NCBI GenBank assembly: GCA_049694315.1
Contig: JBAVQU010000061.1
Coordinates: 38,796-102,795 of the forward strand
Length of the DNA: 64,000 bases
DNA from: Candidatus Zixiibacteriota bacterium
Lineage (GTDB): Bacteria; Zixibacteria; MSB-5A5; SM1-73
Direction: 5' to 3'
Positions within the stretch are counted from its first letter, which is position 1; each line of letters starts with the position of its first letter. The position numbers and the translations under genes are program-made. Shown here piece after piece: positions 645 through 59,783 of the stretch. Below the pieces are notes generated by a model. That model ran no database searches. It was not told the origin of the DNA and worked only from the letters and a program-made list of their open reading frames with translations.

Positions 645-852
645 TAAATCAAAAAGAAGACAGCCACAAGGGCTGTCCGTACGCAGACTCTTTCTTTCCA
701 ATCAAATTCCTTGAAGCACTTTTTCGACAGAACAGTCATCATTGTGCTCTGGCTGGATGCTGTCGTCCGGTCGAAAACAAGCGGATGATAACATCCTCCT
801 CGGAGCAGTTTATGGTCAAGCTGAAGCTTGACACTTCAGTTAGGTCTTTTGA

Positions 853-1866
853 TTAGAATTCAAATCCTAAAGAAAACCGATGCACGCTGGAGAGGCGGGA
901 AAAATCTGCCCAAGCATAGCTGATGTCCAGCTTGGTATTCTTACCCGCTTTGATCTTCATGCCGCCGCCCAGGGTCAACCCCTCCTCTTCGTAATTCAGT
1001 TTGTACCCGGCCCTTAAGGAAAACATTTCTTTCCAGACATACTCTCCGCCGAAGCTTGCCTGCTGAACGTTATCGTTAGGATGTTTTGCCTCCATGGAAA
1101 CGGTGAATTTCGATTCAGGCGAATCGACCAGATCATAGGCCATCCCCAATCTAAAGGTCAAGGGCAGATCATACTGGTCCACGGCCAGCTTGGCATTGAC
1201 CTTGTCATAGCTGGAATTACCGGGTTGTGGATTGTAGGAGGCATCCAGTTCCGGACCATCCAGCTTCATCTCCGGCCCCAGATTGGAGATGTTCATCCCC
1301 ATTCTTAGGCTTCTGAATCCGGTATAGAACAGAGTGCCGAAATCAAAGGCAAATCCGGAAGCTCTCTCCTCGGATATCCGCTCCGAGACGTACTTGCCGG
1401 CAATTCCCGCGGAGAATCTGTCGGTCATTTTTCGGGCATATCCCACGCTTAAGGCATAGGAGGAGGCAGTAAAAGTTTCTCCGGTTCCCTCCGGTTCCTC
1501 CACCGTGGTCACCTCCATACTGCCCATGGTCAGGGCGGTGAGACTCACTCCGACGGCGCTGTATTCGTCCAGGGCCTTCGCAAAGCTAACATGATTGAGT
1601 TGAACGTCTGTCACCCAGTTCACATTGGTGAGTGACAGGCTGGAGGAGGAGATTTCGGTCAGGGCGGCCGGGTTCCAGTACATGGCATAGGCATCGTTGA
1701 CGCAGGCCACCGAAGCTTCTCCCATGGCTTCGTATCGTGCTCCCATTCCGATCTTGAGAAATTGGGCTCCGATCGTACCCACTCTTGAGAAATCTCCGGA
1801 GTAGGCCAAGCTCGCCACACTCAGCATCAACAGAATGGCGATTACAATTACCGTTTTCCTTCTCAT
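853..1866 (-). CDS. FadL/PorV-like outer-membrane beta-barrel protein (paralog P1), downstream partner of T9SS cargo 1
   Basis: It has a signal peptide. Its N-terminal 'GAQFLKIGMGARYEAMGEASVA..NDAYAMYWNPAAL' motif matches the FadL/OMPP1 N-terminal signature 'G.GRA.SGEGA.ADDA....NPA'. It ends 'SLGFEF', a C-terminal aromatic typical of OM barrels. An AAGGAG Shine-Dalgarno (SD) site lies 7 nt upstream of the ATG. Confidence 0.6.
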   Translation of the reverse strand: MRRKTVIVIAILLMLSVASLAYSGDFSRVGTIGAQFLKIGMGARYEAMGEASVACVNDAYAMYWNPAALTEISSSSLSLTNVNWVTDVQLNHVSFAKALDEYSAVGVSLTALTMGSMEVTTVEEPEGTGETFTASSYALSVGYARKMTDRFSAGIAGKYVSERISEERASGFAFDFGTLFYTGFRSLRMGMNISNLGPEMKLDGPELDASYNPQPGNSSYDKVNAKLAVDQYDLPLTFRLGMAYDLVDSPESKFTVSMEAKHPNDNVQQASFGGEYVWKEMFSLRAGYKLNYEEEGLTLGGGMKIKAGKNTKLDISYAWADFSRLSSVHRFSLGFEF

Positions 1867-2119
1867 GTTTCCGCTCCTTCTTTTGCAATTGAGCCACCAG
1901 CTTTTTTTCTGCGTGATGACTAGGTCCTGGCACGTTCTATGTCGTCAGGAGCACGGCTCCCGACGCAACTGCTAAAAGCCGAGTTCGTTGAATTCTGCTT
2001 TCTTCCCCCTCACCCTCCCCTCTCCCACCAGGGGAGAGAGTATAATAGTAAACACATCTCCAATGGTTCATCCGTCGAAGATGGTGAGCGGAGTCGAACC
2101 ATTAAGTCCGTTGACTGGC

Positions 2120-4774
2120 CTATTTTATCACCGCGAATTTCCCCAGCTTCTCGCCATATTTTGACTCCACGTGGTAGAAATAGACACCGGGCACGATCCC
2201 CATTTGGTCCTTGTTTAACATGTCCCAGTCTTCGGTGCCGGTTCCGTTTGCATGCTCGATCGCCTTCACCAAATCCCCGGCCAGAGTGTAGACGCGGATG
2301 GTGCATTCATTCGGGAGATGGGTGAATTGGATCTTTCTTATCCCCTCTTTGTTTTCCCAAAGCGCATGAGCGAGGTAAGGGTTGGGAACGACTTTGATTT
2401 TTGACAAATCATTCCTGGCCGATTGAGCGTCAATTCCTCCGGCATTGAAGACGAACTCATCATTGGAGGAATTGAGTGGGGCACCTACGATTCGGAATAC
2501 GTCTCCCACGCTATAGTTTGTATCTGCGGTGCCGAATCGGAAAAACCAGACATGATCGTCAGGCCAAGCTTCTGGATGCGGCTGACCATCATAAGACACA
2601 TCGACGATGTCGATGTATTCCTTATTTCCGGGTGTCCACACGCCGTTGCTGTCTCTATCATAGATCTCCGCCAAAACCTGCACGTCTTGGCTGGTGTTCC
2701 AAACTTCGAAAGGCACGTGCACCGGGGTGACGTCATCAAAGAAACTATAGGCCTGCGACCCCTGCGCAGTGAACCTCAGCTCATAGGTGGAGCGGAAATG
2801 AACGTCCCCTCCCAAAGACCATCCCCAGGTTTCGCCAGTAGTTCCGTAAAAGTACCCCATGTGCAGAGTGTTTTCCTCGGCATCGGCAAATCCGGTCTGG
2901 CCATACGAGCGGGGAACTTTCTCTCCATTGGTCACGATCACCTGCATTCCATCAACCACGGGATAACTCTCCTGGTCTCCGGACTGCTTGGTTTGATCCT
3001 TCAGAACAGTATCGCCGGTGGCCGTGTCGACCACATGCCAGTAAGTGACCAGTGGATCTTCGGTAAAGACAACTTTATATTCATGTCCGGTTAAGGCACC
3101 TTGATCGAACACGACGGGTGTGACCGCGCCATCACTTCTTTCCTCAGGTCCATGGTAATTGTGCTTGACTGAGGCGCTGGCTGGGTAATATCCCGCCGGA
3201 TCGGTACGGGGATAGGCAAAAGCACAATTGATGTCCTCTCCCGGTCGACCGAAAGCAGTCTGTAAAGGACCTATGGGTACGTTGGTGTCACCCTCATCGA
3301 AGGAGACCACAGAATACCAGTATTCGATCCCGTTGATCAGACTGCTATCCACATGGGTATGCGGAAGAACGTCGCCCGCATTCTCTTTCTGGTACATGGC
3401 AATGGGGACATAGTCCGGACCCAGACTTCCATCCGGATTCCTGACCAGATCTCCCCAGGTTTGTCCCATGTCGGTGCTTTTGTAAATCTTATATCCCTTG
3501 AAATCCTTTTTTCCGCTTAACGGATCAATCGAGGATTCGGAGCTATGGTCCCAGGTGAGCTTCACCTTCCGGTAACTTGGCGTGGTCGCTATTCTGGCTG
3601 GCTTGGGAGGCTCCGGACCGATGAAATGGTTGTTGTATACGGTTTGAGCTATCGCCGCATTGTTCTTCAGCTCTTTCTCGGTCTGTCCGGCCACTAAGGC
3701 AAAAACTATGCGGATGGTTTTGCCTGAGGTCAAGTTGATTCCTCTGGTGCACTGGATATATATCTGATCTCGTGGGATAGAGGAAACCTCGAAAGTGTCA
3801 CTGGCGATGAGGCTGTATTTGCCGGCATCGCTGGTGGGAAGTACGTCCCACTGCTGGTTGCGGAAAGCGGTCATTCCGATGTTGTCAGGAGTCTCAATAT
3901 ACTTCGTTCCCATCATTCCGGTCTTCACCAGTGGACCCCAGCCGGGATCGTACCCATCCTGGTCGTAGGTCCAAGCCAGGTTCATGGACGAGTCGAAAGC
4001 GACCAGATCACCCAATCTGCCGTTTTCGTGAGCAACCGGATCATAACCGCCGACATCGAAATCGCTGTAGAGACCGAACGCGAAATCGGAATAGTTGTTC
4101 GGCGAAGCATTTTTGATCTCCAAGACCACAAAAAGATAGTCCTGATTGTAGCTGTAATTCCACTGGTAGATGGTCTGAGTCATCTCCAGTCCCAGCTTAG
4201 ACACGCCGCTGTTGGCGTCGCAGAATCGATAGTGGCTTTCTTGAAGCGAGATCGGGCCCGCCTCCACCAGGCCGGAGGATATGGTCCAGACCCGGTTGTA
4301 CACCCACTGTCCGGCTTCTGGACTCCATACTTTCCATCCGTGTGCCGGCTTACCGATTCCCGATCCCACGGTATCGGTTCGATCGTAATCATAAGATGAA
4401 CTGTCTGTGGACAGGTGAATTCGGTAGCTTTCGTTTCCGTTGATGATTGACGGAAGAGGCATGAAGTCGTTATCACTGGTGGCTACCGCCGTATCTCCGT
4501 TCGGCTTCACCGCTCCCATCCAATATTTGATCTCGGCCAGATAGTTGTGTCCTGAGCCTTTGGGCCACTCGCCGGAGGGTTTTCCCAGGTCGCTTTGTCC
4601 TCCAATCTGTCCCCAGTTCTGAACAGTGGTAACGATGTTCCCCTTGTTTTGGATGATCTGATCCTGCATGGGAGACGGAGGAACAAGAATTTCCTGGTTT
4701 TTTGAGCTGGCCTTCCCTCCATAATAGAGGAAGAAAAAGACAGCCACAAAAGAGACGATTGTTTTCTGGTTCAT
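2120..4774 (-). CDS. Large secreted protein of unknown function with an FN3-like segment and a C-terminal T9SS type-A sorting domain (cargo 1)
   Basis: The start was moved to the internal ATG at 4774, which has a GGGAGG SD 7 nt upstream and a signal peptide 'MNQKTIVSFVAVFFFLYYGG'. The C-terminus 'KIKVVPNPY...FTHLPNECTIRVYTLAGDLV...GVYFYHVESKYGEKLGKFAVIK' matches the Por_Secre_tail/type-A CTD pattern. No catalytic motif was recognised. Confidence 0.7.
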   Translation of the reverse strand: MNQKTIVSFVAVFFFLYYGGKASSKNQEILVPPSPMQDQIIQNKGNIVTTVQNWGQIGGQSDLGKPSGEWPKGSGHNYLAEIKYWMGAVKPNGDTAVATSDNDFMPLPSIINGNESYRIHLSTDSSSYDYDRTDTVGSGIGKPAHGWKVWSPEAGQWVYNRVWTISSGLVEAGPISLQESHYRFCDANSGVSKLGLEMTQTIYQWNYSYNQDYLFVVLEIKNASPNNYSDFAFGLYSDFDVGGYDPVAHENGRLGDLVAFDSSMNLAWTYDQDGYDPGWGPLVKTGMMGTKYIETPDNIGMTAFRNQQWDVLPTSDAGKYSLIASDTFEVSSIPRDQIYIQCTRGINLTSGKTIRIVFALVAGQTEKELKNNAAIAQTVYNNHFIGPEPPKPARIATTPSYRKVKLTWDHSSESSIDPLSGKKDFKGYKIYKSTDMGQTWGDLVRNPDGSLGPDYVPIAMYQKENAGDVLPHTHVDSSLINGIEYWYSVVSFDEGDTNVPIGPLQTAFGRPGEDINCAFAYPRTDPAGYYPASASVKHNYHGPEERSDGAVTPVVFDQGALTGHEYKVVFTEDPLVTYWHVVDTATGDTVLKDQTKQSGDQESYPVVDGMQVIVTNGEKVPRSYGQTGFADAEENTLHMGYFYGTTGETWGWSLGGDVHFRSTYELRFTAQGSQAYSFFDDVTPVHVPFEVWNTSQDVQVLAEIYDRDSNGVWTPGNKEYIDIVDVSYDGQPHPEAWPDDHVWFFRFGTADTNYSVGDVFRIVGAPLNSSNDEFVFNAGGIDAQSARNDLSKIKVVPNPYLAHALWENKEGIRKIQFTHLPNECTIRVYTLAGDLVKAIEHANGTGTEDWDMLNKDQMGIVPGVYFYHVESKYGEKLGKFAVIK

Positions 4775-4793
4775 GTAACTACCTCCCTCATGG

Positions 4794-7493
4794 TTAGAAG
4801 ATAAACTCAATCCCCCAGCGGACCGTTCGGGGGACGTCGTAGTTTCCCGGGTCCTTGGCCAAAAGGCGATGATAGCGGTTCACGTCCTCAGCCGTCAACG
4901 GTCCATCTCCGTCAGGATCGGCGGTCAGTTCATAATGATAGCCGTCATCATCTGGCTTTCCGGTGTTGGAATAGACGTGCAGCACGTTTCTTCGGTCGAA
5001 GAGGTTTTCCACTTCGGTGAAGAGCGAAAAGTGCGCATCTTGTGATTTGAACAGGTACAAGTCCTTGTTGAACTTCAAATCCACCTGATAGGTAGCAGGC
5101 ATCCTGCCCTCATTCAAAGCTCCCAAGCGGTGTCCTTGATCGTCCGTCTTGGTGTAAGGCATGCCGCTCCCATACTTGGTCAGCACATCCAGTCCCCATG
5201 CTCCGGGCAGGGTCAGGCCCGCCAGCTTTCGTCCCCAGTCCCTGGGAACCCGGTAGTCTAAGTCTACCGTCAGAGTGTGGCGTTGGTCGAAGTCCAGAGG
5301 ATATTCCCTCACCGGCCAAACCGGGGCACTGGTGCCTTGGGTGAAGTAGTCGTAGTAACCCTCATAGGCCGAGGAGGCATTGCCTTTTGCTATCATGTAT
5401 GAGTAGTTGATCGTGCCGGAGAGGTTGCTGTGGTTGGGTCTTCGGGTGAGGATAACGTCCAATCCCTTTACCGTCCCGTAATCGGCATTGGTGAACTGGG
5501 TATAGGAGCCTCCGGCATAGACCACCTCGCGGGTGGAGGCCAGGTTGTTCAGGTCTTTGTAATAGGTGGTGACCTTCATGGTGATGTCATCGCTCAAGGC
5601 ATGGTTCACGCCTAGCTCGTAGGCTACACTCTTTTCCGCCTTCATGTCCGGGTTTCCCAGAAGAGGAAAACCGGTGGACAGGTCGGCCTGAAGATTGGTG
5701 AACATGTCCTGATAGGGCGGAACCTGGAAATAGTAGCCATAGCTGAAATGTATCACCGTCCGGTCGGAGATGGGATGGGAGACGCCCAGACGCGGGCTTA
5801 GCTGAGTTTTTGCCCTGGTGTGAACCATTCGATCCTTGGTCACCGGATTGCTCCAGTAATCGATGTCTGCGTTCACGTAGTCCAAACGAAGACCTGCGTT
5901 CACGATTATGTCCTTCAGCTCAAGTTTATCCTGCAGATACACGGCGCCGTAATCGGGATTGACCTGGTACTTTTCTCCGTAAGGCTGGGCATTGAAAAAC
6001 TGTTTGTCGTCCCATCGCAATTGATTGGCCCGGTACTCTCCTCCAAGTTTGACCTGGTTATGCTTGTCCATCTGGCTCATCACGTCGAACCCCAGACTGG
6101 TGTAACTAGTGCTCTGATAATGATAGGCCGGATAGAAATCGGGAGCAGCGGTGAAACCGGTGTAAAAATACTGCTCCGCCGGGTTATAGTTGTCGTCATC
6201 AATTGTGCCGATGTATACTCCGTTGGAGTCTTCCTGATACCCGGGCCATTGATTCCAATAGAGGTTGAAGAGATGCTCTGGAGCCTGCTTAGTCTCGGTA
6301 TGGAAATGGTTAACCTTTATGGAGTAGAAGGTATGGTTGGATGAGGGACAGGTGAGTTTCGCCCCCAAACTGTACGACTGATTGCGAACTTTTCCCAATC
6401 CGTTCAAATTGAAATCATAGGAGATGTTGTTGACGTCTCTGTGCACATATCTCAACAGGTCCCTTTCGTAGTAATTGCCGTTCAATACCAGCTTGAGGTT
6501 GCCGGCAGGTTGTAGGTTTATCTTTCCCGTTCCGGTGGAGATGTCTTTCCGGTTATGCGGAAGATAATCGTCATTCCAGATCTTCTCTCCGGAGAAGAAA
6601 AAGGTGGCCTTGTCGGTCTGCTTGAGGGTCAAGGGACCGCCCAAGTTGACAACCAGGGAGTTGTTGTCGTTTCTCTGGAGTCTCCCAAATTCGCCGGTGT
6701 TCACCTGGTAGGTGCGAGCCAATCCGTCGTAAGCCTTGATTTTTCCGGAAAAGACCGGACCTCCTTCCCGGGTGATCGCGTTGACCACGCCGGAGAGGGC
6801 CTCGCCGTACTCCGCCGTGAAACCTCCGGTACTGACGTCCAACTCCTCAAGGGCATCGGGGGAAACTCTGGTCCCCGGCAGCCCCACCAGCTGATCCTGA
6901 ATGCAAATGTCGTCCAAGAAATAGCTCACCGTGGCCTCACGTCCCCCGCGAACGTGGAGGTAGCCACGATCGTCTACCACCGTACCCGCCAGGTTGGATA
7001 TGACCGGCTGTATTCCGACCGAATTGGGAAGGTTGTCCAGCTGTTCCCTGATCACCATGTCGGTGGAGGAAGTCAGGTCCTTCTGGATCAGTGGACGGGA
7101 AGCTATCACCGTCACCCCTTTTTTCAGTTCAATCGGGGCCGATTTCAACTGAAAATCAAGGGGAGTGGTGAGATCCAGAAGCACGGTCACCTGAGTCTGG
7201 GTGACTGTCTGGTAGCCGATCAGCGAAGTCTCAACGGTATAGGTCCCCACCGGAACGTTCAGAAAAAAGTACTCCCCGTCCTCATCCGCAGAGCTTCCGA
7301 TACTAGTGCCTCTGATCATTATCGTCGCACCGGGCAACGGCTCCTTGGTCTCCGCATCTCGAATCACCCCGGCGATCTTTCCAGCCGTGCCCGCCAAGGT
7401 GACCTGATGAAAAATCAAGATAAAAAGACAGGCCAGCAAAACTGCTCTTAGGCCCAACCTGATCGTCCCCTTAGGATATGTCTTCGTGGTCAC
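4794..7493 (-). CDS. SusC/RagA-like TonB-dependent outer-membrane transporter with an N-terminal carboxypeptidase-regulatory-like domain, plug and 22-strand barrel
   Basis: The N-terminus 'GKIAGVIRDAETKEPLPGATIMIRGTSIGSSADEDGEYFFLNVPVGTYTVETSLIGYQ' is a CarbopepD_reg-like domain. It is followed by a TonB-box/plug region and ends '...RWGIEFIF' with a terminal aromatic. It starts on GTG with an AAGGAGG SD. It sits 19 nt upstream of cargo 1. Confidence 0.8.
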   Translation of the reverse strand: MTTKTYPKGTIRLGLRAVLLACLFILIFHQVTLAGTAGKIAGVIRDAETKEPLPGATIMIRGTSIGSSADEDGEYFFLNVPVGTYTVETSLIGYQTVTQTQVTVLLDLTTPLDFQLKSAPIELKKGVTVIASRPLIQKDLTSSTDMVIREQLDNLPNSVGIQPVISNLAGTVVDDRGYLHVRGGREATVSYFLDDICIQDQLVGLPGTRVSPDALEELDVSTGGFTAEYGEALSGVVNAITREGGPVFSGKIKAYDGLARTYQVNTGEFGRLQRNDNNSLVVNLGGPLTLKQTDKATFFFSGEKIWNDDYLPHNRKDISTGTGKINLQPAGNLKLVLNGNYYERDLLRYVHRDVNNISYDFNLNGLGKVRNQSYSLGAKLTCPSSNHTFYSIKVNHFHTETKQAPEHLFNLYWNQWPGYQEDSNGVYIGTIDDDNYNPAEQYFYTGFTAAPDFYPAYHYQSTSYTSLGFDVMSQMDKHNQVKLGGEYRANQLRWDDKQFFNAQPYGEKYQVNPDYGAVYLQDKLELKDIIVNAGLRLDYVNADIDYWSNPVTKDRMVHTRAKTQLSPRLGVSHPISDRTVIHFSYGYYFQVPPYQDMFTNLQADLSTGFPLLGNPDMKAEKSVAYELGVNHALSDDITMKVTTYYKDLNNLASTREVVYAGGSYTQFTNADYGTVKGLDVILTRRPNHSNLSGTINYSYMIAKGNASSAYEGYYDYFTQGTSAPVWPVREYPLDFDQRHTLTVDLDYRVPRDWGRKLAGLTLPGAWGLDVLTKYGSGMPYTKTDDQGHRLGALNEGRMPATYQVDLKFNKDLYLFKSQDAHFSLFTEVENLFDRRNVLHVYSNTGKPDDDGYHYELTADPDGDGPLTAEDVNRYHRLLAKDPGNYDVPRTVRWGIEFIF

Positions 7494-7739: not shown

Positions 7740-9395
7740 TCACCGCACTGGCAGTCTGATTCTAAAGGTCGTTCCTACGTTTAGCTCGCTCTCCGCCTGT
7801 ATGGTTGCCCCATGGTGATCCATGATCTTTTTACAGATGGACAACCCCATGCCGTGACCGGTTTCCTTGGTAGTGAAACCCGCGTCGAAGATTTTGCTTA
7901 ATTCATCCTGGGACATCCCTTTGCCCATGTCCTTGACCCAAATCTCCACCACCTGGTCTGGGGAATGGTAGTCGGTCCCGATGGTTATTTTCCCTCCCTC
8001 ACCTCGCCTCTTTCCCATGGCATCTGCGGCATTGTTAAGAAGATTGTAAAGCACCTGCTGCATTTGACCGGCGTCTGCCACTAAGCGCGGAAGATGAGGT
8101 TTCAGCTCGGTCACAATGACGATGTTCTTGAATCTGCTTTGAGGTTTCACAAAAGCAACGGTCTTCTCGATCAGATCATTGACGTCACATTCCGTTTTCT
8201 CCGCCTTCAGAGAGGTGAAATCAAGTAGCCCTTCGGCAAACTTTCTTATCTTCTCCAGGCTGGCGGAAATGCTCTGAAGCTGCTTGTCCAAGGAACTGAC
8301 GTCTCCATGGCTTATCTTCATGCCCAGCATCTGGAAGTTGCCCATGATGACGGTCAGGTAGTTGTTGAGCTCATGTCCGATCTCTGCCGAGATTCTTCCC
8401 TGTGTGGCCATCTTCTCCAGACCGATTATCTGCTCCTGCAAGCTCTGCAGCTCCTTGTAGGATTTTTTTGTCTCTAAGAGCAAGGTAAGGTTTTCCAGAG
8501 AGATCGCGGTCTGGATCCCCAGTATGGTCAGAATCTTGATATCCTCCTCTGAAAGCTCTTGATCGCCGCCGGTTTTCCTCAAAGCCATGACTCCAGTGGT
8601 GGATTCTCCTTTCCTTAGGGGAATCAGGATTGCCTCTCCCTCGAGGTCCGGACCAGGTTGCATCGCCAGAGAGTCACCCAGGAGACTAACCAGCTGAGGA
8701 AACAAGACCTGCTCCTTCACCGTCCTGATCTCCGGAATCTCCTTCAGCCAACAGCCTTCTTGCATGGCTTCTGGGTCTGTCTTGGTGGTAGTCCAAACAA
8801 ACAGGTTCTGCTTAAGGTCTATGGCCTGAAAGCTCTGGATCTCCCCGGCTTTTTCATGCCAGTAGAGGATTATTCCGCTCTTCAAGCGGCTCTGAATCAA
8901 AGCGAACTCCAGCGACAACTTAAGCAGGCTCTTACTATCCCCGGCCGTATATAGGATTCGATTCAAATCAAATATCTGGGAAAGACCCTTTTTTCTGCCG
9001 TCCTCTATGCTCTGACTTCTCTTCTGGATGGCGCGGGTTACTGCATGCCTTATCTCCTGCAGATCAAAAGGCTTAAGGATGTAATCATAGGCTCCTTCCT
9101 GAATGGCTTTTTTTGCCGTATCTAAGCTGGCGAATCCGGTCATAAATATGGCGCCCATGGAAGGGTCCATTTGATGAGCAGCTTGAATCAGTTCCAGGCC
9201 GTCCATCTCCGGCATCTTGATGTCGGTCAAAATGAAATCGAATCTTTCCTGCCTCAACCTGTCCAGCGCCTCGGAAGCGCCGGAAGCGCCGGTGACTTGA
9301 TGCCCCTGACTGCGCAGAGCATCACAAGCCAGCTTCAGCATTATCTCCTCGTCATCCACCACCAGGATTCTGACCGATTCAGTTTTGGTCTGCAT
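7740..9395 (-). CDS. Hybrid two-component protein: N-terminal receiver (REC), a GAF-like middle domain, and a C-terminal HisKA/HATPase_c histidine kinase
   Basis: The REC domain reads 'ILVVDDEEIM...DIKMPEMDGLEL'. The H-box reads 'HELNNYLTVIMGN'. The ATPase G-box reads 'GHGMGLSICKKI'. Confidence 0.8.
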   Translation of the reverse strand: MQTKTESVRILVVDDEEIMLKLACDALRSQGHQVTGASGASEALDRLRQERFDFILTDIKMPEMDGLELIQAAHQMDPSMGAIFMTGFASLDTAKKAIQEGAYDYILKPFDLQEIRHAVTRAIQKRSQSIEDGRKKGLSQIFDLNRILYTAGDSKSLLKLSLEFALIQSRLKSGIILYWHEKAGEIQSFQAIDLKQNLFVWTTTKTDPEAMQEGCWLKEIPEIRTVKEQVLFPQLVSLLGDSLAMQPGPDLEGEAILIPLRKGESTTGVMALRKTGGDQELSEEDIKILTILGIQTAISLENLTLLLETKKSYKELQSLQEQIIGLEKMATQGRISAEIGHELNNYLTVIMGNFQMLGMKISHGDVSSLDKQLQSISASLEKIRKFAEGLLDFTSLKAEKTECDVNDLIEKTVAFVKPQSRFKNIVIVTELKPHLPRLVADAGQMQQVLYNLLNNAADAMGKRRGEGGKITIGTDYHSPDQVVEIWVKDMGKGMSQDELSKIFDAGFTTKETGHGMGLSICKKIMDHHGATIQAESELNVGTTFRIRLPVR

Positions 9396-9400
9396 TCAGC

Positions 9401-9769
9401 CTATTTCTCCTCGAGAACCGAGCTACCAACTTGGTCGATGATCTTTCTCAGTTCCTTCAAATCAAAAGGTTTGTGCATACAGGTTATGGCGCCTCTGCTC
9501 TGGGCTTGGGCCGCCAGCCGGTCGGGATAGCTGTCCATCATCGCCACTGGCATACCGGGATAAAGCTTGCGTATATTTATCAGAGCCTCCAGTCCGTTCA
9601 TGGCGGGCATGTGTACGTCCAGCAAGAGGAGTTCGAACGATCGCGTCTGAGCCTCCCTTAACGCTTCCCATCCGTTTTCAGCGACTGTGACCCGATGACC
9701 GTCGTTGGTCAGCACCTCGAAGAGCAGTTTGCGAATGATGGGGTCATCGTCTGCCACCAGAATGTCCAT
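9401..9769 (-). CDS. Single-domain CheY-like response regulator
   Basis: It is 122 aa with 'ILVADDDPIIR...LLLDVHMPAMNGLE...HKPF'. It lacks an output domain. Confidence 0.85.
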   Translation of the reverse strand: MDILVADDDPIIRKLLFEVLTNDGHRVTVAENGWEALREAQTRSFELLLLDVHMPAMNGLEALINIRKLYPGMPVAMMDSYPDRLAAQAQSRGAITCMHKPFDLKELRKIIDQVGSSVLEEK

Positions 9770-9831
9770 CGACTCCCCTCAGGCATTTTTCGAAAAGAAC
9801 AATAACTATGGTCTTCCGTCACCGCGTTTCT

Positions 9832-11535
9832 TCATTGACTGACGGCCAACTCCTTCTCATCTTTGATCTTGCAGACGACTTCTTCGGCGGAGACAGGCAG
9901 GATCACGGTGAAGACGGATCCCTGATTTCGTTTGCTTTCCACCTCGATTTCTCCGCCGTGATTCTTGACCAGTCCGTAGCTCACCGAGAGACCGAGACCG
10001 GTCCCTTCTCCCACCCTCTTGGTGGTGAAAAAGGGTTCAAATATCTTGCCCACGTTCTCCTCTGGAATGCCCACTCCGGTATCGGCAAAGGATACTTCCA
10101 CTGCCCGCCGGTCTTCGCGCACTCGGCTGGTGATGGTCAATGTTCCTCCGCCGGGCATGGCCTGGAGAGCATTCAAGATGAGATTGGTGAAGATCTGCTG
10201 CAGTTCGCTGGGATGTCCGTTGATCAAAGGCAGGGAATCGGCCAAGCTCTGCACCAGAGTCACGTTGCCTTTCTCGATCTGATGTTTGGTAAAAACCAGT
10301 GTCTCCTTGATAACCGAGCTTAGGTCGGTTGGCTCGGACTCTTCCTTGCGTGACGCCCGGCTGAATTTCAGAAGACTCTGAATGATGCTCCGGCATCTTT
10401 TGGTTTGCTCTTCTATGTCCGTCAAGAACTGGAGGAAGCTCGTATGATCCTCCTGGCTGAATTGAGAGATCGGCTTCTGGTTGATCTTCTCCAAAGCAAA
10501 TTGCGAGTATCCCAAAATCCCCCCCAGGGGGTTGTTTAGCTCGTGCGCCACTCCGGCAGCCAGCTGGCCCACCGCCGCCATCTTCTCCACCTGAATCAAT
10601 TGGGACTGGGTTTGCTTAAGGATCTTCATGGCCTTCTCCAGTTCCCGATTGCTCTTCTCCAGTTCGGCGGTTCTCTCCTTGACCTTGTTTTCCAGGGTTC
10701 GGTTGTACCTTTCGATCTCCTCTCTGGATTCTTTTAATGACGTGATCATCCGATTGAAGGAGTCCGCCAGCTTTCCTATCTCGTCTTTGGCGGCGACGCG
10801 GACCATCTGACTAAGGTCTCCGCTGGCCACCCTTTCCGTGGCCTGAACCAGTTTTCGAACGGGCCGTACGAAGATGTTCACCAGGAAGATGGTGAGCAAA
10901 ACACCCACTGCCACCACCAGCGTGGTCAAAAGGATGACGATTCTTTTCATGTCCGCGATTTCCTTGCGCATATGCTGCAGGAACAGCCCGATGTGAGCGA
11001 CGCCGATTCTCTCCTCTCTCGTGACCAAATCCTTCTTGTCTTCCAGTATCAGACCCAATTCCTCTTTGGATCTCTCTACTCGGGTGGTTTTGATCGGATA
11101 GCTGAAGTCGCAGAACTCCTCCCCTTTGACCGCAAAGTGCCTCTCGCAGGGTTTTCCTTCTCCGAAGGTCTGTTGCATCACGGATAGCCTTCCGGTGCAA
11201 AAGACGTAATCTTTGGCGGTTCGGTCCCACTCGGCCAGAACGTTTCCTATCCGATCCTGAACCACGACGTATTCCACGTCCTCCTCCTGAGAAAGACCCT
11301 TCATCAGGTTGAGAAGCAGCGTTCTGTTCTCGACCAGCACCCCGTATTCGCTGTTGAAAGCCAAATTCCTGACCAATGACTCCGCTCTTTTCCCTAGCTC
11401 CCTCTCAATCAGAAGACTTTGTCTTCTGATCAGGAAGCCACAAAGGAGGAATGAGGTGATCAATATCAGAAGGGAAATCATCAGAACGAACTTGGTCTTC
11501 AGTCCCAAACGGATTCCAGGTAAGAGAGTCCTCAT
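9832..11535 (-). CDS. Membrane sensor histidine kinase (two TM segments, HAMP, HisKA, HATPase_c)
   Basis: It has N-terminal TM helices and a HAMP-like segment. The H-box reads 'HELNNPLGGILGYSQ'. The G-box reads 'GTGLGLSVSYGLVKNHGG'. Confidence 0.85.
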   Translation of the reverse strand: MRTLLPGIRLGLKTKFVLMISLLILITSFLLCGFLIRRQSLLIERELGKRAESLVRNLAFNSEYGVLVENRTLLLNLMKGLSQEEDVEYVVVQDRIGNVLAEWDRTAKDYVFCTGRLSVMQQTFGEGKPCERHFAVKGEEFCDFSYPIKTTRVERSKEELGLILEDKKDLVTREERIGVAHIGLFLQHMRKEIADMKRIVILLTTLVVAVGVLLTIFLVNIFVRPVRKLVQATERVASGDLSQMVRVAAKDEIGKLADSFNRMITSLKESREEIERYNRTLENKVKERTAELEKSNRELEKAMKILKQTQSQLIQVEKMAAVGQLAAGVAHELNNPLGGILGYSQFALEKINQKPISQFSQEDHTSFLQFLTDIEEQTKRCRSIIQSLLKFSRASRKEESEPTDLSSVIKETLVFTKHQIEKGNVTLVQSLADSLPLINGHPSELQQIFTNLILNALQAMPGGGTLTITSRVREDRRAVEVSFADTGVGIPEENVGKIFEPFFTTKRVGEGTGLGLSVSYGLVKNHGGEIEVESKRNQGSVFTVILPVSAEEVVCKIKDEKELAVSQ

Positions 11536-12479
11536 TGGTAGACCTCCTTTGCCACACTGACAATGTGAGGAGGGATCTTCAAGTTGATTTGTTCGGCGGT
11601 CCTCAAGTTCAGTATCAAGTAAATCATCCGGGGTATGGTCAAGGGAATCTGCTTGGGATCCTCGCCGGAAAGCACCCTCAAGGCCAACTCACCGGATTGC
11701 CTTCCGACGTCCTTGTCATCCCAGGCTAAGGTGAACAACGCCCCCCCCTTGACGAAGGCGGGAGAAAGTCCCATGAAGGGAATGCCGTTGCGCAGGGTGT
11801 GAAGCAGCAAGTATTGGGTCGACTGGGGAGTGAATATGATGGTGTCTGCTACCGCCCAAAGACCCTCTGTTTTCTTCCCCAGGTTCTCTATGGCCGGAGG
11901 GATCTCCTTTTCTGAAGAGATGACCACGGGAACCAGCTCCAGGCCGATCTCGTCACAAACCCTTCGAGCCTCCGCCACCAGCGGTTCGGAATCCCGGGTA
12001 TAGAGCACCCCCAACCTTCGTAATCCGGGAACGATAAGCTTGAATTTCTCTAACTGTGTTTTTATCGGGATATCCAAAGACGCTCCGGTCAGGTTGCTCC
12101 CGGAGGACCACATGCTCTGGGCAAATCCACTGGAGATCGGATTCAGCACCGCAGAAAAAACTATGGGGATGTTCTTGATTTCCTTTGAGATTAGGGAAGT
12201 GGCCCTGGAGCCTATGGTGATGATCAGTTCTGGATTAAGCTCTCTGATCTTCTGGATGATCTGTTCCTCATCCGGGGTGCCGGCGGAGAGGTCATATTCA
12301 ATGAAAACCGGAAGGATGTCGCCTTTTCTGATCTCCTTCTTCACGCCCTCGGTGGCCGCTCGGAAAGAGGGCGAATCACTGCTTTTTACGATGACTATCC
12401 TTTTTTCCGCAGAAAAGGCCACCCCCTGAAAAAGGAGCAGAGTCAAAATCCACGGAAACAGCTTTCGCCAGAATGTCAT
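11532..12479 (-). CDS. Periplasmic substrate-binding-like protein (COG2984-type ABC-transporter periplasmic component associated with two-component systems)
   Basis: It has a signal peptide and a sugar-binding-fold-like repeated beta-alpha pattern. Its stop overlaps the downstream kinase start in an ATGA arrangement, indicating translational coupling. Confidence 0.55.
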   Translation of the reverse strand: MTFWRKLFPWILTLLLFQGVAFSAEKRIVIVKSSDSPSFRAATEGVKKEIRKGDILPVFIEYDLSAGTPDEEQIIQKIRELNPELIITIGSRATSLISKEIKNIPIVFSAVLNPISSGFAQSMWSSGSNLTGASLDIPIKTQLEKFKLIVPGLRRLGVLYTRDSEPLVAEARRVCDEIGLELVPVVISSEKEIPPAIENLGKKTEGLWAVADTIIFTPQSTQYLLLHTLRNGIPFMGLSPAFVKGGALFTLAWDDKDVGRQSGELALRVLSGEDPKQIPLTIPRMIYLILNLRTAEQINLKIPPHIVSVAKEVYQ

Positions 12480-22868: not shown

Positions 22869-23034
22869 GACCTGTGGGAAAAACATTGGGCCAGGACTTT
22901 GTTGCGCGGGCGAAACTCCAAGCATCTCCCCTATTGTGCTTTCTGATGAGCCCAGACGGGGAATACGGCGCGAAGCGAAAAGAGGACGAATTAGATACTC
23001 AAAAGCATCCATCTCAAAACAGGCTCTTTCTCGA

Positions 23035-29532: not shown

Positions 29533-29852
29533 GAAGGAATGTTTCTGCCGGTCCGGGTCTTGAGGAACGTTTTGTTTCGCGGTGGTGAACCCGGCTGGCA
29601 CGAAAGTCTGCTCGCCTTTTCGCGGATCGGCACTCTGGAGAGTAGAGATGGAAAGAGGTTCGGCATGATCGATTCACCGGGGAATGAAGGCTTTCCCCGA
29701 CTTTCGTCACACTTACACAGACCTGACGGGCCGGGCAGGAGCATCGAACGGGGCTTCGGTTCTCATGGGCTACCAATCTCAAGCAAATCAAACGCGGTAT
29801 TTTCGGGTTTCGGTTTGGAGATAAGTTGCGATACCGCAAGGAGACGGAAATA

Positions 29853-50098: not shown

Positions 50099-50294
50099 TT
50101 CCTCAAGGATGGGTTAGGTCTCCACATCGTGTCGCCGACGTTATGATGGACGACCTCGACACCTCGTTCCTTCGTAGACTTAAGCTATCGAAACGAGCGC
50201 TGTCTCGAAAAAGTGCTTCAGTAGAAATTGTTTTCGGTTCTTTTGACCATCCACTTTATACGCCTGGCTTCCTTTTGCCAGTGCAGCGACCTTC

Positions 50295-55194: not shown

Positions 55195-56202
55195 TTAGAA
55201 ATTTAGCACCAGACCGAACCGGTGAGCGTTCTGCAGTCTGCCCAAATCTGCCCAAGCGTAGTTGATCCCCACGCTTCCGAATCCGGAAATCTCGTAGTCA
55301 TAGCCCGCTCCGAGCGCTAGACCTTCTTCATCGGTTCTAAACTTATATCCGGCTCTGACCGACAACCGATTTCGCCAGCTGTACTCCAGTCCCGCGCTGG
55401 CCTGCTGGCCGCGGTCCCGGGTATTGTATCCGTCTACCGTCGCCATAAGCTTGCTCTGCTCGCTAAACTCAAAGTCGTAGGCCACTCCCAGACGAAAGCT
55501 CAAGGGCAGAGGTTGAGATTGGGTTTCCTTTTTCACCAGAATCGGCGCGGTGCTGGAATTGCTGTCCGCATCAAATGTCGTCTCCAGCTCACTTCCGTCA
55601 AACTTGGTGTCCGTTCCGAAGTTTCTGGTGGACATGGCTATCCTCAGGGTCCGATATCCGGTGTAGTACAGGGTGCCGACGTCAAAAGCGAGAGCATCGG
55701 CAGAGAGCTGGGAGATTTTCTCTCGGATGTACTTGGCAGTCACCCCGAAAGAGAATCGATCGGTGAGCTGATAGGCGTTGGTGATCCCTACCACCCAGCT
55801 GTCCGCCCCGAACTTCTCTCCAGTTCCGTCCGGCTGGTCCAGAGTAGTCACTTCCATGTCGCCCATGGTCAAAACGGCCACGTGCACCCCCACGTTTCCG
55901 AACCCCTGAAGCGGAGTCTCATAGGCTAAGTAGTTGTATTTGATGTCCGAAATCCAATCGGTATAGCTGAACGCCAGGCTGCGCTTGTCCAGGTTGGCTA
56001 TTCCCGCCGGGTTGTAGTACAGCGCCATCGCTCCCTTGGTGACCGCCACGCTTGCCCCCCCCAAGCCCACTACCCGGGCGTCTACGTCCAACTTGAGGAA
56101 CTGAGCCCCGGACGTCCCCACATTGTCGAATTGGGCCGGCCACGCTTCACCGGCCAGGCAGACAAACTGGATCAGCACCAGGAACGTAAGGAATTTTTTC
56201 AT
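55195..56202 (-). CDS. FadL/PorV-like outer-membrane beta-barrel protein (paralog P4), downstream partner of T9SS cargo 2
   Basis: It carries 'VGTSGAQFLKLDVDARVVGLGGASVAVTKGAMALYYNPAGI' and ends 'HRFGLVLNF'. It is the closest paralog of P1. A GGAGGAGG SD precedes it and it lies 30 nt after cargo 2. Confidence 0.6.
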   Translation of the reverse strand: MKKFLTFLVLIQFVCLAGEAWPAQFDNVGTSGAQFLKLDVDARVVGLGGASVAVTKGAMALYYNPAGIANLDKRSLAFSYTDWISDIKYNYLAYETPLQGFGNVGVHVAVLTMGDMEVTTLDQPDGTGEKFGADSWVVGITNAYQLTDRFSFGVTAKYIREKISQLSADALAFDVGTLYYTGYRTLRIAMSTRNFGTDTKFDGSELETTFDADSNSSTAPILVKKETQSQPLPLSFRLGVAYDFEFSEQSKLMATVDGYNTRDRGQQASAGLEYSWRNRLSVRAGYKFRTDEEGLALGAGYDYEISGFGSVGINYAWADLGRLQNAHRFGLVLNF

Positions 56203-56232
56203 CGCAACTTACCTCCTCCAAGGTTAAATCCG

Positions 56233-59200: not shown

Positions 59201-59718
59201 AAATTGGCGGCACTATAGTCCTCGGGGTGGTCACTGATGAATATGTCCGTGACTCCGGCGAATTCTCCGGCTCCGCTGCTGGGTTCATATCCCACCGCCA
59301 CCCGGGGGTCGGAGAGCGTTCGATAAAGAACCTCATCCCTGGTTGACCCCGAATTGTTGAAACTCAAGGTCTGTAGGCTGGGATTGTTCACGGTTCCCCC
59401 CACCCATAAGCCGGCGCCATAGATGTAAAACTCGTTGGTACCTTTGGGCCACTCTCCCCCTGCCGATCCCACGTCCACAAACTGCCCAAAAACAGAGTAG
59501 TTGGTCATGGGGATTCGGAAATCGTTGATGTCCAGACCATGCCTGATGTATCTGGTTTTGTTACTAAAGTGTTCTGTCTGGGCCATCTTTGCCAGCCGGG
59601 GGGAACCCTTCTGGCCCGCGGTTCGAGCTTGGTTTTCGGTGGGCAGCAGTGCAAATAGAAGGAGGAACAAGAAGACAACCCCGCCCGAGATTGCGCGTTT
59701 CTTAACGAATTTCTCCAT
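56233..59718 (-). CDS. Large secreted protein of unknown function with an FN3-like segment and a C-terminal T9SS type-A sorting domain (cargo 2, paralog of cargo 1)
   Basis: The start was moved to ATG 59718, which lies 7 nt after an AAGGAG SD and gives the signal peptide 'MEKFVKKRAISGGVVFLFLLLFALLP'. The CTD 'RIKVVPNPY...FTHLPNRCTLRIYTLSGDLL...GVYIYHVDSPYGEKIGKFAVVR' is near-identical in pattern to cargo 1. The N-region motif 'GGEWPKGT' is shared with cargo 1. Confidence 0.7.
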   Translation of the reverse strand: MEKFVKKRAISGGVVFLFLLLFALLPTENQARTAGQKGSPRLAKMAQTEHFSNKTRYIRHGLDINDFRIPMTNYSVFGQFVDVGSAGGEWPKGTNEFYIYGAGLWVGGTVNNPSLQTLSFNNSGSTRDEVLYRTLSDPRVAVGYEPSSGAGEFAGVTDIFISDHPEDYSAANFWPLRDNADNPILVGIEDSYTEYDDQDPERWDTGINSNAGDGKDIAKFGLGVKVIQRTHSWNYDNNKTIHFFIYQIVNIREDKRPIRNCFVSVMCDPDIGPNARDDLVGIDKTRNLGYAYDSDNAEQGFGRIPGYLAYKFLESPLATYDVDLNGDDQISDDSLNVNGNGVYVKDVRRGNSLGLTSFKVSDLESGDPANEPEKFLIMAGHNYPTSGDQRYAPFDLGSGTSPNDQRFFQNTGPFLLAAVGDTVVDTVYSWNSSTDTLKIASIDTVVGDTVRVVVAVMMAPDRVQLPRVADIAQSIYDIGFILPRPPDKPNISVVPDDKKVLIGWDNSSESSKDPYFKFTSDPTNPLYDPNYKEMDFEGYRLYRSTTGLPGSFELLSSWDKSSVTPRHVDVQQLSGPTFAGAVTYDELNTENYILVEGSTSLFTGHQYLVQVKADTSFSVTDLTLGVGIPPSKKENHWLPPGEPPYLFEVFSLEGDTLFVSRSTAERIADGTYDNYFDDCYLLFGGMLIHFKGDNPSYVPTDNLVFEITGHLEEPEGANSQLGYSYVDTGLINGMTYYYDVVAYDFQPFASPRSLQNGISAVAVTPRSNASGLVQGSAYNVTHAPGSSDGTVQVTTVQPDAVTGHVYEVGFHEGDIPLLWYLKDVTADTVLLDNMANQTGNNDYPVVDGMVFKVMGPAELGFNADLTKLNSHGLSWFFNEVYIGGRNALANGDFRNFRIKFVAGPGDTTAQGFYRDVQGNTPWGHFRADTTHISVPFEVWDLGPNVEDVSDDVRIWPLMYDFYGDGRFHTDDYIILLDKNTSGNTYAEDFFSNPDHDPGNAAYWSLDTSKPMSRHDWDYRAAFNEVDPVWAKGDNALLITWKPNTHEDVFTIKTNEKHIEANQVDLNRIKVVPNPYIVRNNWEPSGDYSRIAFTHLPNRCTLRIYTLSGDLLRTLEHNSADLDGNENWDLLTKNNQKIASGVYIYHVDSPYGEKIGKFAVVR

Positions 59719-59783
59719 GTCAAATCTCCTTTTCAATGATTCTTTGCTCTCACGTCAATGCTGGCTTCATGGTTTGATCACCC

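What the first reader, a model, noticed from the sequence alone, without database searches (positions are those of the whole stretch)
853..7493. Non-canonical 'PUL-like' operon: a SusC-like TonB-dependent transporter, a giant T9SS type-A cargo protein, and a dedicated PorV/FadL-like barrel, with no SusD
Three minus-strand genes are tightly spaced. There are 19 nt between the transporter stop and the cargo start, and each gene has its own Shine-Dalgarno site. The transporter carries the N-terminal carboxypeptidase-regulatory-like extension that defines SusC/RagA-type TonB-dependent transporters. In Bacteroidota these transporters are obligately paired with a SusD-family lipoprotein. Here the immediately downstream gene is instead an 884-aa secreted protein with no SusD features and a textbook T9SS type-A C-terminal sorting domain. 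It is followed by a 337-aa FadL/PorV-type barrel. PorV is the outer-membrane shuttle for type-A cargo. The inference is that the cell-surface partner of the transporter is delivered and anchored by the T9SS rather than being a lipoprotein. I do not know of a described system with that arrangement. The cargo protein has no recognisable catalytic motif.
Basis: partly seen in the sequence, partly recalled or inferred. Interest (0 to 1): 0.8.

Follow-up and report, generated by a model that had tools for sequence, protein, structure and literature searches.

The report
TonB transporter, tethered surface protein, PorV-like anchor
A Zixibacteria genome carries a three-gene outer-membrane cassette (TonB-dependent transporter, large secreted beta-rich protein with a type IX secretion tail, PorV-like barrel) that recurs across several relatives of the Bacteroidota, sits where SusC/SusD would sit in nutrient-uptake loci, and was not found described in the searchable literature.

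Summary
The three genes are real. The organism is a Zixibacterium, not a Bacteroidota member, so the premise "SusC must pair with SusD" does not apply. The transporter has the carboxypeptidase-regulatory N-terminal domain but fails the SusC/RagA model (52 vs 368 bits). The 884-aa protein is all-beta: a mutarotase-like supersandwich, an Fn3-like domain, a domain with no close solved analogue, and a T9SS-type C-terminal domain. That tail matches by fold but is below threshold for both type A and type B models, so it is not "textbook type A". The barrel is a PorV/PorQ-family member, not a PorV or PorQ equivalog.

The order transporter, middle protein, barrel holds in every one of 80 Zixibacteria species loci where the contig reaches. 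A paralogous second copy lies in this window. The order also holds in 8 of 8 distant family members sampled, including Marinimicrobia. Neighbours there are glycoside hydrolases or peptidases with canonical T9SS tails.

Similarity of the transporter tracks the middle protein's ectodomain. Similarity of the tail tracks the barrel.

Best reading: a SusD-independent nutrient-capture and import unit, with the surface protein held by a cognate PorV-like barrel. Export through a T9SS was not tested. No description was found in the searched literature.

The parts
4794..7493 (-). TonB-dependent transporter A (899 aa). Order of parts: signal peptide, carboxypeptidase-regulatory-like N-terminal domain (aa 40-125), TonB-box-like GVTVIAS, plug, 22-strand-type barrel.
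   Evidence: Pfam CarbopepD_reg_2 E 5.9e-18, Plug, TonB_dep_Rec_b-barrel E 7e-28. TIGR04056 SusC/RagA scores only 52.4 bits against a cutoff of 368. The TonB-box-like motif is my reading of the translation, not a tool result. It is 31% identical (E 4e-142) to the transporter of the second trio.
2120..4774 (-). Middle protein A (884 aa from the ATG at 4774; includes the stop codon). Secreted, all-beta, multi-domain, with a T9SS-type C-terminal domain.
   Evidence: ORF and 19-nt gap. AF2 model pLDDT 75.9. No Pfam domain above threshold. Orthologs at 45-97% identity in Zixibacteria.
3605..4660 (-). Middle protein, aa ~39-390: galactose-mutarotase-like beta-supersandwich, the fold of the non-catalytic N-domains of GH15/GH65/GH94-type enzymes and of the YidC P1 domain. 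Invariant DxDxGG / NGRLGD / DxDGxD motifs.
3215..3592 (-). Middle protein, aa ~395-520: Fn3-like beta-sandwich.
   Evidence: Secondary structure of the model. Foldseek matches to Fn3 arrays of receptors.
2405..3202 (-). Middle protein, aa 525-790: confidently modelled beta domain with no close solved analogue.
2123..2398 (-). Middle protein, aa 793-884: conserved C-terminal sorting or anchoring domain. Motif: VVPNP[YF]-x(10-25)-IxFxxLPxxCTIRIYT...W[DN]L...GxYxYHV...GKFAVIK.
   Evidence: Fold match to T9SS CTDs. Sub-threshold type A and type B HMM hits. It is the most conserved part across the superfamily, 41-47% identity between phyla.
1867..2119 (-). 253-nt spacer, lineage-specific and not conserved. 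It contains a palindromic G-rich element at 2005-2038.
   Evidence: No Rfam family at E <= 0.1 lies in the spacer.
853..1866 (-). PorV/PorQ-family outer-membrane barrel A (337 aa).
   Evidence: NF033709 248 bits (cutoff 90). PorV equivalog 125 bits against 250; PorQ equivalog 117 bits against 220. phmmer E 2e-20 to PorV 6h3i_F. 41% identical to the barrel of trio B.
658..678 (-). Terminator-like hairpin followed by a T-run, about 175 nt downstream of the barrel gene. Likely end of the operon.
   Evidence: Consensus scan and sequence reading. A pattern match only.
7740..12479 (-). Adjacent sensory module: TrpX-like periplasmic binding protein (11532-12479), HAMP histidine kinase (9832-11535), single-domain response regulator (9401-9769), hybrid response-regulator/histidine kinase (7740-9395).
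   Evidence: NCBIfam. Pfam PF04392/HAMP/HisKA/Response_reg on orthologs. The binding protein plus kinase lie next to the trio in nearly all Zixibacteria loci that reach far enough upstream.
55195..62678 (-). Second, paralogous trio B in the same order and strand: transporter 59784-62678 (964 aa), middle protein 56233-59736 (1167 aa), PorV/PorQ-family barrel 55195-56202 (335 aa).
   Evidence: Pfam and NCBIfam. Pairwise BLASTP of all three components.

Best explanation
The three genes encode one outer-membrane nutrient-acquisition unit, used by FCB-group bacteria outside the classical Bacteroidota in the place where Bacteroidota use SusC/SusD.

Shown:
- The cassette (transporter with an N-terminal carboxypeptidase-regulatory domain, then a large secreted beta-rich protein, then a PorV/PorQ-family barrel) is conserved in order and strand. 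It is duplicated as a whole within this genome. Sampled relatives with the same layout include Marinimicrobia, and the conserved tail module carries names from several other FCB lineages.
- In other lineages it is embedded among glycoside hydrolases or peptidases that carry canonical type A T9SS tails.

Inferred:
- The middle protein crosses the inner membrane by Sec and is exported across the outer membrane through its C-terminal domain, most likely by a T9SS.
- It then stays on the cell surface because that domain remains bound to the cognate barrel encoded next to it. This is how PorZ is held by PorQ, PorU by PorV, and type B cargo by PorP/SprF proteins.
- Its variable ectodomain (carbohydrate-binding-type supersandwich, Fn3, novel beta domain) captures substrate and works against the partner transporter, which imports the substrate using TonB energy.
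- In this lineage the adjacent binding-protein/histidine-kinase phosphorelay probably controls expression.
- The substrate of this particular copy is unknown.
For: Conservation:
- The order transporter, middle protein, barrel is present in every one of 80 Zixibacteria species loci where the contig reaches, at 45-78% identity.
- A whole-cassette paralog lies in the same window.
- The same order holds in 8 of 8 distant family members sampled, including a Marinimicrobia MAG. All 7 of these that have downstream sequence carry a barrel 34-45% identical to the window's.
- In L084 and L088 adjacent genes are 2 nt apart or overlap by 4 nt.

Scale:
- 1099 clusters (50% identity) match at E <= 1e-30 and 4565 at E <= 1e-10.
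- Named hits to the tail module include Ignavibacteria, Calditrichaeota, KSB1, Fidelibacterota and Rhodothermales.

PUL-like contexts:
- L092: CBM9 protein with a type A tail, then the trio, then GH3, GH16, GH3 and an MFS transporter.
- L090: C25 and M6 peptidases with type A tails. L088: two M16 peptidases, an S51 peptidase and a cyanophycinase-like protein. L086: a CBM20 protein with a type A tail.

Fold and family:
- Non-catalytic carbohydrate-binding-type supersandwich plus a T9SS CTD fold.
- The barrel is homologous to PorV.

Co-variation:
- Among 10 trios, transporter similarity tracks the middle protein's ectodomain (Spearman 0.76-0.78, Mantel p about 0.001).
- Tail-module similarity tracks the barrel (0.70-0.81, p < 0.001).
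- The cross pairs, which share the same phylogeny, give only 0.2-0.43.

Precedent: cognate barrels retaining uncleaved CTDs, and clustering of cargo genes with barrel genes, are described in review PMC10202324.
Against: - No physical interaction was tested, and no multimer model could be run.
- T9SS core genes (SprA, PorKLMN, PorU) were neither found in the window nor searched genome-wide.
- The tail is below threshold for both the type A and type B models.
- Trio A has no hydrolase neighbours in this window, so its substrate is unknown.
- The supersandwich fold is not proof of glycan binding. It also occurs in YidC and in catalytic mutarotases and lyases.
- The co-variation analysis uses only 10 non-independent trios.
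- The 253-nt spacer in this window could allow separate regulation of the barrel gene.
Confidence: 0.6

Rival explanations
1. Export device. The transporter is not an importer here. It acts as the outer-membrane conduit that secretes the middle protein, in the way Myxococcus Oar is required for PopC secretion. The PorV-like barrel receives and anchors the protein, independently of a SprA-type T9SS.
For: - Transporters of several trios carry hits on record to PF25183, which to my recollection is Pfam's Oar-like TonB-dependent transporter barrel family (the tools returned only the short name OMP_b-brl_4).
- The strict one-to-one pairing and co-variation of transporter with middle protein would also fit a dedicated exporter.
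- An Oar precedent exists (PMC6434023, listed).
- No T9SS core gene was seen (not tested genome-wide).
Against: - Contexts full of glycoside hydrolases, peptidases and inner-membrane sugar transporters argue for import.
- Neighbouring enzymes carry canonical type A tails that pass the curated cutoff, which implies a working T9SS in those organisms.
- The tail has the T9SS CTD fold and the barrel is a PorV homolog.
- PF25183 was not detected in the window's own transporter.
Confidence: 0.08
2. The middle protein is a surface enzyme (a new lyase or hydrolase built on the supersandwich and the novel beta domain), not a binding protein. It cuts polymer for the transporter to take up. Anchoring would be as in the main model.
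For: - Supersandwich domains are catalytic in mutarotases and form part of polysaccharide lyases (heparinase III, GAG lyases) among the fold hits.
- Many Asp, His, Tyr and Trp residues are invariant.
- The 525-790 domain has no known analogue, so its activity cannot be excluded.
Against: - No catalytic domain partner is present: there is no (alpha/alpha)6 or toroid, and the model is all-beta.
- No family or PDB sequence hit was found.
- The loci already contain dedicated secreted enzymes.
- The invariant DxDxGG and DxDGxD motifs look like calcium sites (my inference).
Confidence: 0.15
3. Genomic neighbours only. The middle protein and barrel are an adhesin or surface-coat pair like SprB-SprF, and the transporter upstream works independently.
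For: A cargo-plus-barrel pair does occur without a transporter in this window: 49133-53779, a propeller protein followed by two PorV/PorQ-family barrels.
Against: - The transporter lies immediately upstream in all 88 loci examined where sequence exists, often with only 2-20 nt between the genes or a short overlap.
- All three genes were duplicated together.
- Transporter similarity tracks the middle protein's ectodomain better than it tracks the barrel or the tail.
Confidence: 0.07
4. The barrel is a FadL-type channel for a hydrophobic or amphipathic product and has no role in handling the C-terminal domain.
For: Weak Toluene_X/FadL Pfam hits at E 3e-6, below the cutoff. The PorV family belongs to the FadL-like fold class (PMC12611786).
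Against: - The PorV/PorQ family score is far higher (248 bits) and there is direct similarity to PorV.
- Barrel similarity tracks the tail module (rho 0.70-0.81).
- The tail is the most conserved part of the middle protein.
Confidence: 0.05

Closest known systems
SusC/SusD (RagA/RagB) core of Bacteroidota polysaccharide or peptide utilisation loci
   Same: A TonB-dependent transporter with an N-terminal carboxypeptidase-regulatory-like domain is followed immediately by the gene of a surface-exposed partner. There are several paralogous copies per genome. The unit is embedded among secreted hydrolases, with an adjacent sensor or regulator.
   Different: The partner is an all-beta, roughly 900-1600-aa protein with a Sec signal and a T9SS-type tail, not an alpha-helical TPR lipoprotein. 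The transporter fails TIGR04056. A third obligatory gene encodes a PorV-family barrel. The hosts are Zixibacteria, Marinimicrobia and other non-classical FCB phyla.
Type B CTD cargo with cognate PorP/SprF-family barrels (SprB-SprF in Flavobacterium; PG1035-PorP in P. gingivalis)
   Same: The cargo gene is clustered with a dedicated PorV-like barrel gene. The tail is proposed to stay uncleaved and to anchor the cargo on the barrel (PMC10202324).
   Different: The barrel here belongs to the PorV/PorQ family (NF033709), not PorP/SprF (PF11751 gives only 23.8 bits). The tail has type-A-like motifs with an inserted loop and passes neither model. A transporter is always part of the unit.
PorZ-PorQ and PorU-PorV pairs of the T9SS attachment complex
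   Same: A protein with a retained CTD is held on the surface by a PorV/PorQ-family barrel. The tails of the middle proteins weakly match the PorU CTD, and the model matches the PorZ and PorU structures.
   Different: Those are single-copy machinery components. Here the pair is multiplied, variable in its ectodomain and tied to a transporter.
Oar-type TonB-dependent transporters (Myxococcus Oar, needed for PopC secretion)
   Same: A carboxypeptidase-regulatory N-terminal domain plus a transporter barrel outside Bacteroidota. PF25183 hits are on record for several cassette transporters.
   Different: PF25183 is not detected in the window's own transporter. No partner with a T9SS tail or PorV-like barrel is known for Oar (from knowledge of PMC6434023, listed).
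BamG-BamH of the Bacteroidota BAM complex
   Same: A FadL/PorV-like barrel serves as the membrane anchor for a large extracellular protein (PMC12611786). There is a weak BamG hit at E 3e-7.
   Different: BamH is a lipoprotein and part of BAM. The BamG score of 29.8 bits is far below the 250-bit cutoff.

Membership tests
SusC/RagA TonB-linked outer membrane protein family | Full-length match to TIGR04056 at the curated cutoff | tested here: not met
   52.4 bits against a cutoff of 368.25, with only aa 39-160 matched. Trio B scores 48.2 bits.
SusC/RagA TonB-linked outer membrane protein family | N-terminal carboxypeptidase-regulatory-like extension before the plug | tested here: met
   PF13715 E 5.9e-18 and PF13620 E 1.2e-17 at aa 40-125. 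From established knowledge this feature is shared with non-SusC transporters, so it is not sufficient.
SusC/RagA TonB-linked outer membrane protein family | Adjacent SusD/RagB-family lipoprotein gene | tested here: not met
   The downstream gene has no SusD Pfam hit at E <= 0.1 and models as all-beta with no lipobox cysteine. Genome-wide absence of susD was not testable.
SusD/RagB family (for the middle protein) | Alpha-helical TPR-based fold, lipoprotein signal, SusD Pfam domains | tested here: not met
   beta-sandwich domains only.
T9SS type A C-terminal sorting domain (TIGR04183 / PF18962) | HMM match at the curated cutoff | tested here: not met
   TIGR04183 scores 18.8 bits against 23, and PF18962 gives no hit. 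Only 7 of 49 orthologs hit weakly. Neighbouring enzymes in related loci do pass, at 29-43 bits.
T9SS C-terminal domain (structural class) | Seven-strand beta-sandwich CTD fold at the extreme C-terminus, with PNP, GxY and terminal K motifs | tested here: met
T9SS type B C-terminal domain (PF13585 CHU_C / TIGR04131) | HMM match at the curated cutoff | tested here: not met
   PF13585 scores 17.2 bits against 27, and 19 of 49 orthologs hit weakly. TIGR04131 gives no hit.
PorV/PorQ family (NF033709) | HMM match at the curated cutoff | tested here: met
   248.1 bits against 90. The other three barrels in the window score 118-215 bits.
PorV proper (NF033710) or PorQ proper (NF033711) | Equivalog-level HMM score | tested here: not met
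   PorV 125.1 bits against 250; PorQ 117 bits against 220.
T9SS cargo (functional) | Genome encodes the T9SS core (SprA/Sov, PorK/L/M/N, PorU/Z) | not testable with these tools
   No core gene was found among the roughly 40 window ORFs scanned. No whole Zixibacteria genome or T9SS query sequence was available. The indirect hint is canonical type A tails in Zixibacteria (L002) and PGAP names.
Oar-like TonB-dependent transporters (PF25183, which I recall as the Oar-like TBDT barrel family) | Pfam PF25183 barrel match | tested here: inconclusive
   No hit in the window's transporter at E <= 0.1. Hits are on record for an ortholog (L002) and for distant cassette transporters (L087, L090 weak, L091).

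The most novel reading that the evidence does not exclude
The cassette defines a previously unrecognised, phylum-spanning class of outer-membrane 'utilisome'. A TonB-dependent importer is served by a surface protein that is not a lipoprotein. Instead the protein is plugged by a dedicated T9SS-type tail into its own PorV-like barrel. This would be the FCB superphylum's alternative (possibly older) solution to SusC/SusD. It would also mean that PorV-family barrels act generally as cargo-specific surface sockets. The more radical variant is that the transporter plus barrel form a self-contained export-and-anchor system that works without a SprA translocon.
Probability: 0.45. Interest if true: 0.85.

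Novelty: new variant of a known kind. Interest (0 to 1): 0.72.

Why it matters
Knowledge of polymer uptake in the FCB superphylum rests almost entirely on the SusC/SusD pair of Bacteroidota. Zixibacteria, Marinimicrobia, Ignavibacteria, Calditrichota and KSB1 are abundant in sediments and the ocean, are mostly uncultured, and are usually annotated as having orphan TonB receptors and hypothetical proteins.

A conserved three-gene unit would give a marker for finding nutrient-utilisation loci in these phyla. The middle-protein family has more than 1000 clusters at E <= 1e-30 and returned no Pfam or NCBIfam match above threshold outside its C-terminal tail.

It would extend the roles of T9SS tails and PorV-family barrels from secretion machinery to permanent, cargo-specific anchoring beside a transporter. 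It also yields directly testable predictions: tail-barrel and ectodomain-transporter complexes, and locus-specific substrates such as beta-glucan for the GH3/GH16 locus.

Tried and rejected
- Ten full-text literature searches combined Zixibacteria or Marinimicrobia, T9SS, PorV or PorV-like, TonB-dependent, SusD, Melioribacter and FCB phyla. None found a description of the cassette, or of T9SS in Zixibacteria. The Caldithrix and Melioribacter genome papers do not mention it.
- The BAM paper's text and supplements gave no per-phylum T9SS table in readable form.
- Sequence searches of the middle protein against the PDB found nothing. The transporter matched only the carboxypeptidase D domain.
- The afdb50 fold library was unavailable.
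- For the 253-nt spacer, the Rfam scan at E <= 0.1 found nothing inside it (one sub-threshold chance hit lay elsewhere in the region). The palindromic element occurs once in the window. Spacers of relatives are not conserved. I therefore treated the spacer as lineage-specific filler, not as a regulatory RNA.
- The idea that the 833-aa propeller protein with two barrels (49133-53779) is PorZ/PorQ/PorV was rejected as unproven. Only the tail matches the PorZ and PorU models, far below cutoff.
- The look-up of a Calditrichaeota member (P0328) returned no record.
- Presence of the T9SS core and genome-wide absence of SusD could not be tested.

Full report
**Observation**

The region holds three minus-strand ORFs: 4794-7493 (899 aa), 2120-4810 (896 aa from a TTG; 884 aa from the ATG at 4774) and 853-1866 (337 aa). 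The ATG start leaves exactly 19 nt after the transporter stop and has a GGAGG motif 7-8 nt upstream. The other two genes have similar motifs.

The second junction is not tight. 253 nt separate the middle gene from the barrel gene. This spacer carries a palindromic G-rich element that occurs once in the window. The spacer is unconserved among close relatives (82-700 nt) and only 2-30 nt long in more distant ones. A terminator-like hairpin lies about 175 nt after the barrel gene.

**The three proteins**

*Transporter.* It has CarbopepD_reg_2 (E 5.9e-18), Plug and a TonB-dependent receptor barrel. It scores 52 bits on the SusC/RagA model, whose cutoff is 368, and only through its N-terminal domain. 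The N-terminal extension is therefore real, but the protein is not a SusC-family member.

*Middle protein.*
- It has a Sec signal peptide without a lipobox cysteine, no SusD hit and no Pfam domain above threshold.
- An AlphaFold model built on 49 orthologs (pLDDT 75.9) is all-beta.
- An Fn3-like domain follows.
- By HMM the tail is ambiguous and below threshold. Type A TIGR04183 scores 18.8 bits against 23. Type B CHU_C scores 17.2 bits against 27. Among 49 orthologs, 19 weakly hit type B and 7 weakly hit type A. 'Textbook type A' is therefore not supported.

*Barrel.* It is a clear PorV/PorQ-family member (248 bits, cutoff 90) and aligns to F. johnsoniae PorV (E 2e-20). It is below the equivalog cutoffs for PorV and PorQ.

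**Organism**

Homologs of the middle protein at 52-97% identity are named Zixibacteria, also written Zixiibacteriota. The genome scan returns Zixibacteria MAGs; records titled 'uncultured Ignavibacteria' come from one submitter series.

**Conservation**

- A scan of species-representative genomes found 115 genomes encoding a relative, and 80 loci were fetched. In every locus where the contig reaches, the order is transporter, middle protein, barrel on one strand, at 45-78% identity. A periplasmic binding protein gene and a HAMP histidine kinase gene lie next to the trio in nearly all loci that reach far enough upstream. They are divergent in most loci and co-directional in the window's clade, where a response regulator and a hybrid kinase also lie alongside (Pfam; NCBIfam).
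- The window itself contains a second complete trio at 55195-62678 in the same order. All three proteins are homologous to those of the first trio: transporter 31% (E 4e-142), middle protein 21-31% (E 1e-53), barrel 41% (E 5e-96). The cassette was thus duplicated as a whole and both copies stayed intact.

**Breadth**

A profile of the middle protein finds 10111 representatives of 50%-identity clusters at E <= 1e-3, 4565 at <= 1e-10 and 1099 at <= 1e-30, with lengths of about 900-1600 aa.

I looked up the genomic context of eight distant members. All eight have a transporter with the carboxypeptidase-regulatory domain immediately upstream. All seven with downstream sequence have a barrel 34-45% identical to the window's. 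One is from a Marinimicrobia MAG. In L084 and L088 adjacent genes are 2 nt apart or overlap by 4 nt.

The last ~130 residues are the best conserved part of the family, at 41-47% identity between phyla. The motif is VVPNP[YF]-x(10-25)-IxFxxLPxxCTIRIYT...GxYxYHV...GKFAVIK. A profile of this module finds 1079 proteins at E <= 1e-10. Named hits come from Ignavibacteria, Calditrichaeota, KSB1, Fidelibacterota, Rhodothermales and a 'Bacteroidota' MAG.

**Function from context**

In other lineages the trio sits where SusC/SusD would sit in a utilisation locus.
- L092: a CBM9 protein with a type A tail, the trio, then GH3, GH16, GH3 and an MFS transporter.
- L090: C25-type and M6 peptidases with type A tails.
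- L088: two M16 peptidases, an S51 peptidase and a cyanophycinase-like protein.
- L086: a CBM20 protein with a type A tail.

The neighbouring enzymes pass the type A cutoff at 29-43 bits, while the middle proteins do not. These organisms therefore have two classes of tail: a canonical one on enzymes, and a distinct one on the protein that is paired with its own barrel.

**Co-variation**

For ten trios I computed normalised similarity matrices for four parts: the transporter, the middle protein without its last 135 residues, the last 135 residues, and the barrel.
- Transporter similarity tracks the ectodomain (Spearman 0.76-0.78, Mantel p about 0.001).
- Tail similarity tracks the barrel (0.70-0.81, p < 0.001).
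- The cross pairs, which share the same phylogeny, give 0.2-0.43.

The sample is small and its members are not independent. The pattern is nevertheless what two separate interfaces would produce.

**Mechanism proposed**

Shown: the conserved, duplicated three-gene unit; its domain content; and its PUL-like surroundings.

Inferred:
- The middle protein is exported by means of its tail, most likely through a T9SS.
- The tail stays uncleaved and sits in the cognate PorV-like barrel. The T9SS review describes the same arrangement for PorZ-PorQ, PorU-PorV and type B cargo with PorP/SprF proteins, whose genes are likewise clustered (PMC10202324). A FadL-like barrel anchoring an extracellular protein is also seen in the Bacteroidota BAM complex (PMC12611786).
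- The variable ectodomain captures substrate for its partner transporter.
- The adjacent binding-protein/kinase phosphorelay probably regulates the A-type copy. Its binding protein is distantly TrpX-like, at 118 bits against a cutoff of 390.
- The substrate of this copy is unknown.

**Rivals**

The rivals are: an Oar-like export role for the transporter; an enzymatic rather than binding role for the middle protein; mere co-location; and a FadL-type channel role for the barrel. Each is weighed in its own section of this report.

The main gap is that I could not test whether Zixibacteria encode the T9SS core. None of the roughly 40 window ORFs scanned is a core component. Indirect support comes from canonical type A tails in a Zixibacteria genome (L002).

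**Novelty**

Ten literature searches found no description of this cassette or of T9SS in Zixibacteria. The searches here returned no Pfam or NCBIfam match above threshold for the middle protein or for this transporter subfamily.

All the parts are known kinds. The combination, its conservation and its spread appear undescribed in what I could search. I therefore rate it a new variant of a known kind: a TonB-dependent uptake system with a surface partner, and T9SS cargo with a cognate barrel.

Noticed in passing
window 55195-62678 (-): A second complete trio (964-aa transporter, 1167-aa middle protein, 335-aa PorV/PorQ-family barrel), paralogous to the first in all three genes. The gaps between its genes are 47 and 30 nt.
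   Followed up: yes
window 49133-53779 (-): An 833-aa BNR/beta-propeller protein is followed by two PorV/PorQ-family barrels (314 and 321 aa), with no transporter. Its FlgD_ig-type tail (YPSPF...GVYFFKM...GKVVVLK) weakly matches the PorZ and PorU tails. This may be attachment-complex-like or another cargo-and-socket set.
   Followed up: partly
window 29826-32933 (+): A 1035-aa ORF combines a Peptidase_MA_2 domain, a TolB/PD40 beta-propeller and an Omp85-type barrel in one protein. This is an unusual fusion for an outer-membrane protein.
   Followed up: no
window 2005-2038 (-), and L075 spacer: The palindromic G-rich element CTCTCCCCTGGTGGGAGAGGGGAGGGTGAGGGGG lies in the spacer between the middle gene and the barrel gene. 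A near-identical element sits in the same spacer of a related Zixibacteria MAG, while the rest of the two spacers is unrelated. It looks like a small REP-like insertion.
   Followed up: partly
window 20616-21980 (+): A single 454-aa ORF joins a complete TatD DNase domain (aa 2-252) to a radical SAM domain (aa 271-438).
   Followed up: no
L092 1-14549: A PUL-like beta-glucan locus built on the trio: CBM9 protein with a type A tail, transporter, middle protein (split by a frameshift into 870 + 182 aa), PorV-like barrel, GH3, GH16, GH3 and an MFS transporter.
   Followed up: partly
L087 1-12831: Tandem cassettes: a 1586-aa middle-protein paralog and its barrel, followed directly by a transporter, a 1589-aa middle protein and a barrel.
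   Followed up: no
window 22936-24879 (+): A 647-aa ORF with no Pfam hit, and only a weak match to a GSU2204-type CXXCH (seleno)protein model.
   Followed up: no
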